From positions 375,279 through 439,278 of the forward strand of contig NW_015172042.1 of assembly GCF_001447785.1 (NCBI RefSeq): 64,000 nucleotides of DNA, in the 5' to 3' direction. Position 1 is the stretch's first letter. Every line of letters starts with the position of its first letter. Shown here piece by piece: positions 24,901 to 27,900 of the stretch. The stretch is from Gekko japonicus (taxonomy: Eukaryota). A program made the position numbers.

Positions 24901-27900
24901 ATTCATCCTCCACATATCCCAAAACCTTTTACAGACATCAAAGGCCAAACTCCCACCCTGGTCTGAATACATCTGGAGTAAATCCCTAAGAAATCACATA
25001 AACCACCAAGGAGGATCTGCAACACTCTGAGAAGTGAATCAGTTCAATATGAAGGTGTGATGGGGGAGGGGCAGGAGGCTATCTTGTTCATTTTTATATA
25101 TTTTTAATATTTCCCCCTCCTAATAGCTAAAAATTAGGTGTTTTTTCAACCTCTCCATGCTTACTATTAGCCTTTCCCCCCAAAAAAAATCCCAAACCAT
25201 ATGGGACCACTAAGATATTAACTGGTTTTCCACCAAGTTCATACTGCTCCCATCCCATCGGAGCTCACAGCTAACAGAGGCGTGGTCCTCTGTCTCTTTA
25301 CCAGCTGGTGCTCAGTTGTCCAAGTGCCCCTGGTAGGAAAGGGATTACTGGAGGGGGAACCCCATGCCCCCACCCCCACCCCATCTCCCTTAGTAGCTAA
25401 TTTAGTTTCCATTCCATTAACTGCCCCCGTCACCCCTTAAAAGAAAGGCAAGACAAGAAAATGATGGATGCATTCAAGTTGCACTAAAGAGAAGAAAATA
25501 CCGCCCATCACCCCAGCTCTCTGGGAGCCCCTGCCCTGCAATCTCTATGAAATCAAGAAACCACGGACAGAAAGCATCCTTATGTCGGTCTGGGCTCGCT
25601 CAGAAAATCTGGAGGAGGGGGCAGAGCAAGCATACATCCCCACCCCACAGAACCACATCTGTCTCGCCCTCCTCCCCTTCACATCCACACCCTCCAAATC
25701 CAAGACAGAAAATCCTATTCAACGCATCTTCCTACAGGTCCCCCGCCCAAAGGTGTCTGTCTGAAAGGGAGAGGGTCTCTCTCTCTCTGCCTTCCCTGTT
25801 CCCAACCCAGACTCCACAGGCAACCAGCCCTCTGCCCCCTCCCCCCCAAAACACCCGCAATTCAGCGAAAGGGTGTGATGTGACAAGCCTTCAGTGGGAA
25901 AGATGCTTTAAACAAACACACACACGAAATTGCAAAAAAACACCGCGGCTGAGAAGCCGCTGAAAGCCTCCCTCCGCTGCCTGCACACCTCTCTCTCAAC
26001 ACGCCCCCCCCCCCCCCCCCCAAGATTCTAGGAATTTCCCAGCGGCAAGAAAGTATAAAAAATCTCCAGCTCTACCTGTTTTGTTCTTCTCATACAGCAC
26101 AGCATGGTTGTATAGTCCCTTTCTTCCTTGTTGTTCCTTCCTTCCTTCTCCTCTCTCCTTTTTCCTCCTCTCTCCCTCTCTCTCTCTTATCTCTCCCCCC
26201 ACCCTCTCCACTCCCTCCCCTCCCTCTTCCTCTCACTCGCGGGCACACGCACACGCACACACACACACACACGACAGGGCAGTTCGCAGTGACTGGAAGG
26301 TCCACAGCTATTCCTCAGCGCACATGCTCCCCCTCTGCCTCGCGCTCCCCCTCGCCCGCTCTTTCCCAGAATTGTTCACTGGCAGCTCTCGGGGACTAGT
26401 CACTTCCCCGCCCCCCGCCCTTACCACCACCATCCAGGCAGCCACCCCCTCGCCGTCCTCTGCCAGCCTCATGAATATTTAAGCCTATCCAATCTGGACC
26501 CAATTACCCGGCGACTTCCCCACACTGTACAGAGATTGCGAGAGGAAAGGGGGGGGGGGGGGAGGGGAGACGCCGAGGATTGTTCAGGGGGGTGTGGCAA
26601 GGTAGGGCTTGTCAGAAAAGCGGCTCTATTTCTTAGCGTCTCGGTTTGGGTGTTTGCTTTTTGACACAAATGATCTCTTCACAGCCCAGTGGGGGAAAGA
26701 AAGGAGCAGGCACAGGACCCCCATTCTCAGAAATGTGTCTTAAGGAAACAAGTTGGTGCTTTTTTTCCCCTGTAAGGCACACAGGCTATCAAGAGCACAT
26801 GTGATGCCAGCCTCTGGAAAGAGCTAGTGTGCAGAGTGGAACCCAACACACAGTCTTAAGGTAAACCAGAAAGAAATGTCTGCGGCTGTCTCCCCTTCCC
26901 ACGTGGTCATACGCAAAAAGTACATGCCAGCAAAACTCATTGTGTTCTTATACAGCCGATGGCCAATGATATTTAAAGCACATTTAAAACAATTCATTTT
27001 TCAAAATATTTCCGAATGCCAAAAAATGTTTGTGTAGGACTCAATTGGCCAGTGTTAGCATTTGATCCCATCTTCATCTTGAGAAACTTGTGGATCTACA
27101 TCTGCATATCTGTATATGGGAATCTACATGCATGGAAATATTTATTGCACATGCTGTGTACATTATCAATAAGAAATATTGAATGTGTGTGACTTCTGAG
27201 AATGTGGGGCAGAGTGACTAACAGTGCCATCCCACAGAGAGTTACGCTTCTCTAAGTCCATCAAAGTCAGTGAACTTAAGAAGGGTGTAACTGTGTTTAG
27301 GTTTGCATTGCATGAGTCTGAGAATGTGAAAATTCATGGAGGTAGGCAGCCAGGACATGTGTGGATCTGAGCTGCCGCAGAATTACTGAACTGGAAGTTC
27401 AAAAACAAAACACAGTAACTTCTTCCCCAGTGAATATATTTCTTGAACGTTAGCCAACAATTCATCAGTATTCATCACCAAGAGTGTCTCATAGACCAAT
27501 TTTATCCTTAACTGTACTGGACACCATTTCACCTCTGAACTGAAGATGTCAACTCCAGCTGTAACCATGGTCTCATATACAGTTAGAGTCACTTAAGATC
27601 TTTAACATCAAAGAGTTAACTCATGCTTAACAATGTTTTGGATTGTGGCCAGCTGATTTAATCAGACAATAAATCTACGCTATAAAATTAAACTTCTTTA
27701 GTAGTGCTATCCTAATCAGTTACATCCTTCTGAGCCCACTGAAGTCAGTGGGCTTAGAAAGGGTGTAACTGCTTAGACTGGAAACTGTAGTCTTTGGAAG
27801 GAAGTTAGGGAATTCAAGTAGAATGCTCACCACTTTAATAAAACTACAGTTACCATAAACCCTTTTTTCCCAAGGTGGGGGATAAAATATTTACTTGGTA

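What the first reader, a model, noticed from the sequence alone, without database searches (positions are those of the whole stretch)
26076..26105. Hidden 30-nt GAP43 coding exon absent from the ORF track
The only host coding sequence in 64 kb encodes MLCCMRRTKQ, the dual-cysteine palmitoylation/membrane-targeting peptide, with a good Kozak context and a GT donor. It reframes the window as intron 1 plus upstream region. The gene is known, but automated annotation can easily miss this exon.
Basis: partly seen in the sequence, partly recalled or inferred. Interest (0 to 1): 0.7.

Follow-up and report, generated by a model that had tools for sequence, protein, structure and literature searches.

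The report
GAP43 first coding exon, lizard genome

Summary
Observation confirmed. On the minus strand, 26105..26076 reads ATG plus nine codons, MLCCMRRTKQ, followed directly by GT at 26075-26074. It is the only MLCC in the six frames. About 1.5e-9 such peptides are expected by chance in the window. Pfam gives one family, Neuromodulin_N, matching profile positions 1-11 (E 1.9e-4, below the curated cut-off because only a third of the profile is present). Papers name this decapeptide as the GAP43 palmitoylation signal and say that exon 1 of rat and human GAP43 encodes exactly the N-terminal 10 residues. Upstream lie promoter-like features. The window is not human. It has no 7SL/Alu-like hits. Its long LINE frame is BovB-like and closest to wall-lizard copies, which points to a squamate reptile. 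Of 71 frames of at least 100 aa, only reverse-transcriptase pieces match Pfam. Verdict: a known gene and a known exon structure, of low interest.

The parts
26076..26105 (-). Coding part of GAP43 exon 1: start codon plus nine codons, MLCCMRRTKQ (Cys3, Cys4)
26074..26075 (-). GT of the 5' splice site (CAG|GTAGAG)
   Evidence: the exon boundary after residue 10 agrees with the review passage
1..26073 (-). Part of intron 1, running off the left edge of the window. It holds LINE and SINE pieces and no exon 2.
   Evidence: no IQ motif, no Neuromodulin match; inferred
26004..26021 (-). Run of 18 G in the intron, 55-72 nt past the donor. Possible intronic splicing enhancer (inference only).
26112..26235 (-). 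Homopurine (GA-rich) tract just upstream of the ATG, presumed 5'UTR. 124 nt, 92.7% purine, with pure runs of 24, 55 and 14 nt.
   Evidence: One of two such tracts in the window; the other is a CTT/CCT microsatellite.
26244..26272 (-). (GT)n dinucleotide repeat, 14.5 copies, 85% matches
26408..26420 (-). Two GGGCGG (GC-box-like) motifs
   Evidence: consensus match only
26475..26481 (-). TATA-like TAAATAT, about 370 nt upstream of the ATG
   Evidence: consensus match only
26489..26504 (-). Two ATTGG (inverted CCAAT) motifs just upstream of the TATA-like site
   Evidence: consensus match only
26540..26570 (-). 31-nt homopyrimidine (C-rich) run upstream of the CCAAT/TATA-like cluster

Best explanation
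This is exon 1 of the GAP43 (neuromodulin) orthologue of a squamate reptile, transcribed from the minus strand. The exon carries a purine-rich 5'UTR and the first ten codons. Its donor at 26075 is spliced to an exon 2 that lies left of the window, so 1..26073 is part of intron 1 and 26106 onward is 5'UTR, promoter and upstream DNA. The ten residues work as the membrane-targeting signal: Cys3 and Cys4 are S-palmitoylated, which holds the otherwise soluble protein on the inner face of the growth-cone and presynaptic membrane. Shown here: the sequence, its uniqueness in the window, the family match and the exon boundary. Taken from papers: palmitoylation and the 10-residue exon. Inferred: transcription from the TATA/CCAAT-like cluster or from a TATA-less site nearer the ATG, and splicing to an unseen exon 2.
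For: The exact decapeptide is followed by GT. There is 1 MLCC in six frames, against a chance expectation of 1.5e-9. Pfam returns one family, Neuromodulin_N, with residues 2-12 on profile positions 1-11 of 31 and E 1.9e-4. The decapeptide is described as the S-palmitoylation signal based on GAP43 (passages of PMC7768372). A review states that rat and human GAP43 have three exons, that the first encodes the N-terminal 10 residues of the membrane-targeting domain, that Cys3/Cys4 are palmitoylated, and that P1 has TATA and CCAAT boxes while P2 has neither (passages of PMC5583208). The locus has a TATA-like site, two inverted CCAAT motifs and two GC-box motifs upstream. GC is 0.63 and CpG o/e 0.73 at 26200-26399, against CpG o/e 0.24 for the window. 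No ATG lies between 26325 and 26105. The longest stretch free of intra-window repeats, 21075-29730, holds the exon.
Against: The Pfam score of 21.8 bits is below the curated cut-off of 27. No exon 2 was seen: 0 matches to a generic IQ motif in six frames, and 0 of 16 minus-strand frames of at least 100 aa in 1..26075 match Neuromodulin. The gene beyond exon 1 is therefore assumed, not shown. The donor departs from the consensus at +4 to +6. Promoter motifs are bare consensus matches. The homopurine tract is not unique in the window (7 of 19 extreme 124-nt windows are here and 12 are at a microsatellite near 37800). No transcript data, orthologous genome or annotated squamate GAP43 protein could be compared.
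Confidence: 0.93

Rival explanations
1. A dead or duplicated copy of exon 1, such as a segmental duplicate or relic locus, that is no longer joined to a working GAP43 gene.
For: Exon 2 is not in the window, so a connection to the rest of the gene is not shown.
Against: All ten codons are intact and the GT donor is in place. An in-frame stop lies upstream and the ATG context is kept. Promoter-like motifs and raised CpG sit directly upstream. The exon lies in the longest repeat-free stretch of the window. A long intron 1 is expected for this gene (recalled for mammals).
Confidence: 0.04
2. A processed pseudogene (retrocopy) of GAP43 mRNA.
For: The two residues read past the boundary (V, E) still fit the Neuromodulin_N profile (residues 2-12).
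Against: After residue 12 the frame gives LEIFYTFLPLGNS and a stop at codon 26. No IQ motif exists in any frame of the window. The break falls exactly at the known exon 1/2 boundary with a GT. V and E come from GTAGAG, which is the donor itself.
Confidence: 0.01
3. A chance open frame in non-coding DNA.
For: None beyond its short length.
Against: Expectation is 1.5e-9 per window. Pfam returns one specific hit.
Confidence: 0.001

Closest known systems
Rat and human GAP43 (neuromodulin, B-50) exon 1 and promoter region
   Same: The exon encodes exactly the N-terminal 10 residues with Cys3/Cys4 and ends at a GT donor. TATA-like and CCAAT-like motifs lie upstream, as described for promoter P1, followed by a TATA-less, GC-rich and purine-rich stretch nearer the ATG.
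   Different: The host is a squamate, not a mammal. I recall homopurine/homopyrimidine and dinucleotide-repeat elements flanking the rat core promoter from Nedivi et al. 1992. I saw only that paper's title in a reference list; the paper is not held.
GAP43 palmitoylation tag used in membrane-targeted reporters (Palm-GFP and similar)
   Same: The decapeptide is identical.
   Different: Those are synthetic fusions. Here the peptide sits in its native genomic setting with 5'UTR, donor and intron.
Other N-terminally lipidated growth-cone proteins (BASP1/CAP-23, MARCKS), recalled
   Same: A short N-terminal lipid anchor on a natively unfolded, acidic, PKC-regulated protein.
   Different: Those are myristoylated on Gly2. 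This peptide has no Gly2 and has the Cys-Cys pair instead. They were not tested here.

Membership tests
GAP43 / neuromodulin gene, exon 1 | N-terminal decapeptide MLCCMRRTKQ with Cys3 and Cys4 | tested here: met
   identity of the peptide with the GAP43 signal
GAP43 / neuromodulin gene, exon 1 | Match to Pfam Neuromodulin_N (PF10580) | tested here: inconclusive
   It is the only family returned, at E 1.9e-4, but its 21.8 bits are below the cut-off of 27. The exon supplies 10 of the profile's 31 positions; the match itself spans profile positions 1-11, reaching two residues into the intron read-through.
GAP43 / neuromodulin gene, exon 1 | Exon 1 ends after codon 10 at a splice donor | tested here: met
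   GT at 26075-26074. A 10-residue first exon in rat and human is stated in PMC5583208.
GAP43 / neuromodulin gene, exon 1 | Exon 2 with calmodulin-binding IQ motif and PKC site downstream on the same strand | tested here: inconclusive
   There are 0 IQ-motif matches in six frames and 0 of 16 downstream frames of at least 100 aa match Neuromodulin. Only 26 kb of intron is in the window, so absence here does not decide the point.
GAP43 / neuromodulin gene, exon 1 | Promoter with TATA and CCAAT boxes (P1) and a TATA-less proximal promoter (P2) | tested here: inconclusive
   TAAATAT lies at 26481, ATTGG at 26504 and 26493, and GGGCGG at 26420 and 26413. These are consensus matches only, and no transcription start data exist.
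GAP43 / neuromodulin gene, exon 1 | Synteny with LSAMP and ZBTB20; neural expression | not testable with these tools
   No vertebrate genome or RNA-seq collection is on hand.

The most novel reading that the evidence does not exclude
The layout around the lizard core promoter may be an ancient, functionally kept arrangement shared with mammals rather than local simple-sequence noise. In it, a C-rich homopyrimidine run lies upstream, and a (GT)n repeat plus a 124-nt homopurine tract lie downstream of a TATA/CCAAT cluster. If so, non-B-DNA-forming tracts have regulated GAP43 for some 300 million years.
Probability: 0.25. Interest if true: 0.3.

Novelty: already known. Interest (0 to 1): 0.08.

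Why it matters
It matters little beyond annotation. It fixes the gene, strand and frame of an otherwise repeat-filled window. It also shows that a 30-nt first coding exon is invisible to ORF-length filters, since the unspliced frame is only 25 aa. GAP43, its 10-residue first exon and its palmitoylation signal are textbook knowledge. The one mildly interesting side issue is whether the odd purine/pyrimidine tracts around the promoter are conserved between mammals and reptiles.

Tried and rejected
1. I tried to fetch an annotated squamate GAP43 protein by searching with the exon-1 read-through (22 aa). The frame stops at codon 26, so no legitimate longer query exists and I dropped the step. Whether public annotations of squamates include this exon therefore stayed unchecked.

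2. The primary promoter papers are not held (Nedivi 1992; Weber and Skene 1997). Two text searches for promoter-tract descriptions gave nothing useful.

3. I looked for exon 2 in the window and found none.

4. I rejected a mammalian or human origin.

5. I had taken the homopurine tract for unique in the window, but a full listing showed a second extreme tract, an ordinary CTT/CCT microsatellite at about 37806-37900.

7. The genome-contig collection holds bacteria and archaea only and was not used.

Full report
**The observation**

On the minus strand the window reads an ATG at 26105-26103, nine further codons ending with CAG at 26078-26076, and then GT at 26075-26074. The translation is MLCCMRRTKQ. 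A six-frame scan finds MLCC once, at this place. From codon degeneracy, 1.5e-9 such decapeptides are expected in both strands of 64 kb.

- The same frame has a stop 28 codons upstream.
- Read without splicing, it runs only 25 aa before a stop, 26105..26028. No ORF list with a normal length threshold would show it.
- The start context has A at -3 but C at +4.
- The donor CAG|GTAGAG fits the recalled consensus at -3 to +3 and not at +4 to +6.
- The window holds no N.

**What it is**

The 22-aa read-through (P0001) matches one Pfam family, Neuromodulin_N (PF10580). Residues 2-12 fall on profile positions 1-11 of 31, with E 1.9e-4 and 21.8 bits. That is under the curated 27 bits, as expected when two thirds of the profile lie in another exon.

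The decapeptide occurs in 41 papers of the library (15 listed, listing only). In PMC7768372 I read the passages that call it the S-palmitoylation signal designed from GAP43. In the review PMC5583208 I read the passages that make four statements:

- Rat and human GAP43 have three exons.
- Cys3 and Cys4 are palmitoylated.
- Promoter P1 has TATA and CCAAT boxes, while P2 has neither.

The exon boundary here is therefore exactly where it is in mammals. A retrocopy is excluded. Beyond V and E, which are simply the donor GTAGAG read as codons, the frame bears no likeness and stops at codon 26.

**Surroundings of the exon**

Reading the gene strand from upstream to the ATG:

| Feature | Coordinates |
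|---|---|
| 31-nt C-rich homopyrimidine run | 26570-26540 |
| Two ATTGG motifs | from 26504 and 26493 |
| TATA-like TAAATAT | from 26481 |
| Two GGGCGG motifs | from 26420 and 26413 |
| E-box-like CATGTG | 26326 |
| (GT)n repeat, 14.5 copies | 26272-26244 |
| Homopurine tract, 124 nt, 92.7% purine | 26235-26112 |

- GC is 0.63 and CpG o/e 0.73 at 26200-26399, against CpG o/e 0.24 for the whole window.
- No ATG lies between 26325 and 26105, so transcripts that start near the purine tract would have no upstream ATG.
- In the intron, a run of 18 G lies 55-72 nt past the donor. It may help a middling donor, but that is inference.
- All the motifs are consensus matches, not evidence of function.
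- The purine tract is not unique. Of 19 extreme 124-nt windows out of 63,877, 7 are here and 12 lie at a CTT/CCT microsatellite near 37800.
- The longest stretch without intra-window repeats, 21075-29730 (8,656 nt), contains the exon.

**Exon 2**

A generic IQ motif pattern gives 0 matches in six frames. Of the 16 minus-strand stop-to-stop frames of at least 100 aa in 1..26075, none matches Neuromodulin and one is a reverse-transcriptase piece. Exon 2 is therefore not in the 26 kb of intron held by the window. I recall that intron 1 is tens of kilobases long in mammals, so this absence is expected.

**Rest of the window**

Of all 71 stop-to-stop frames of at least 100 aa, 7 match RVT_1 and none matches any other Pfam family at E<=1e-3. 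A few weaker rows between E 0.0024 and 0.32, all under their cut-offs, are taken as noise. This agrees with 'the only host coding sequence', with the caveat that short exons would be missed.

**Whose genome**

I do not take the window for human, for these reasons:

- At E<=1, Rfam gives 13 matches, none to 7SL/SRP as Alu or B1 elements would give.
- The 434-aa LINE frame at 39161-40465 is only distantly like human L1 ORF2p (E about 1e-13).
- Among the 120 listed of 8,000 scored proteins, that frame is closest to named Podarcis muralis copies (79-82% identity). Varanus follows at 72-79%, Bos at 71-76% and Anolis at 70-71%. That is the BovB/RTE family known from squamates and ruminants (listing and abstract starts only).
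- The L1-like piece at 2-985 scores 204 bits over 279 aa against human L1 ORF2p, which is distant.
- A third reverse-transcriptase frame has no solved relative.

BovB, a divergent L1, 5S-like and tRNA-like SINE heads and hairpin elements together point to a squamate, probably a lacertid lizard. A ruminant is less likely. GAP-43 immunoreactivity in the wall lizard is in print (PMC8552833, passages).

**How it works**

From the papers, the ten residues are a lipid anchor. Cys3 and Cys4 are S-palmitoylated and hold the protein on the cytoplasmic face of the axonal membrane. From the sequence, the exon is translated from the first in-frame ATG and spliced at 26075. Which promoter is used and where exon 2 lies are inferred.

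**Comparison and novelty**

This is the known gene with the known exon structure in another vertebrate, so it is already known. The most novel reading left open is that the pyrimidine and purine tracts flanking the core promoter are an old, conserved arrangement. I recall such 'unusual DNA elements' from the rat promoter paper of Nedivi et al. 1992. I saw only its title, and the paper is not held.

**Unchecked**

- Whether squamate annotations include this exon. The protein search refuses queries under 40 aa, and no annotation was on hand.
- Synteny.
- Transcript support.
- Supplements of papers were not needed.

Noticed in passing
window 31941-32432 and 32433-32924: An exact 492-nt tandem duplication, 100% identical. 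It is either a very recent duplication or an assembly artefact.
   Followed up: no
window 39161-40465 (+), with related pieces at 2816-3375 (-) and 8852-9239 (+): A BovB/RTE-type LINE with a 434-aa open reverse-transcriptase frame, closest to Podarcis muralis copies at 79-82%. In the same listing, several near-identical proteins carry bacterial or protozoan names (Staphylococcus aureus, Mycoplasmopsis arginini, Mycolicibacterium, Babesia ovata). These look like host-DNA contamination of those assemblies.
   Followed up: partly
window 2-985 (+) and 52648-53730 (+): Two other LINE reverse-transcriptase pieces. One is a divergent L1 (204 bits to human L1 ORF2p over 279 aa). The other has no solved relative at E<=1e-3.
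   Followed up: partly
window 48875-48948 (+) and 49049-49347, 3673-3948, 29744-30018, 33326-33577, 37578-37825: A tRNA-Glu(TTC)-like sequence lies beside a 275-300-nt repeat family with five copies of 72-91% identity. They are candidate tRNA-derived SINEs, perhaps the Sauria SINEs tied to BovB (listing only).
   Followed up: no
window 15188-15301 (-) and 29345-29464 (-): Two 5S-rRNA-like stretches score just under Rfam's cut-off, 36.9 and 30.8 bits against 38. They may be 5S-derived SINE heads or 5S pseudogenes.
   Followed up: no
window 5943-6099, 18551-18632, 45777-45844, 59864-60019: Self-complementary hairpin elements of 68-157 nt that hit miRNA models on both strands below cut-off. They look like MITEs.
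   Followed up: no
window 37806-37900: A (CTT)n(CCT)n microsatellite, the only other extreme purine/pyrimidine tract of the window.
   Followed up: yes
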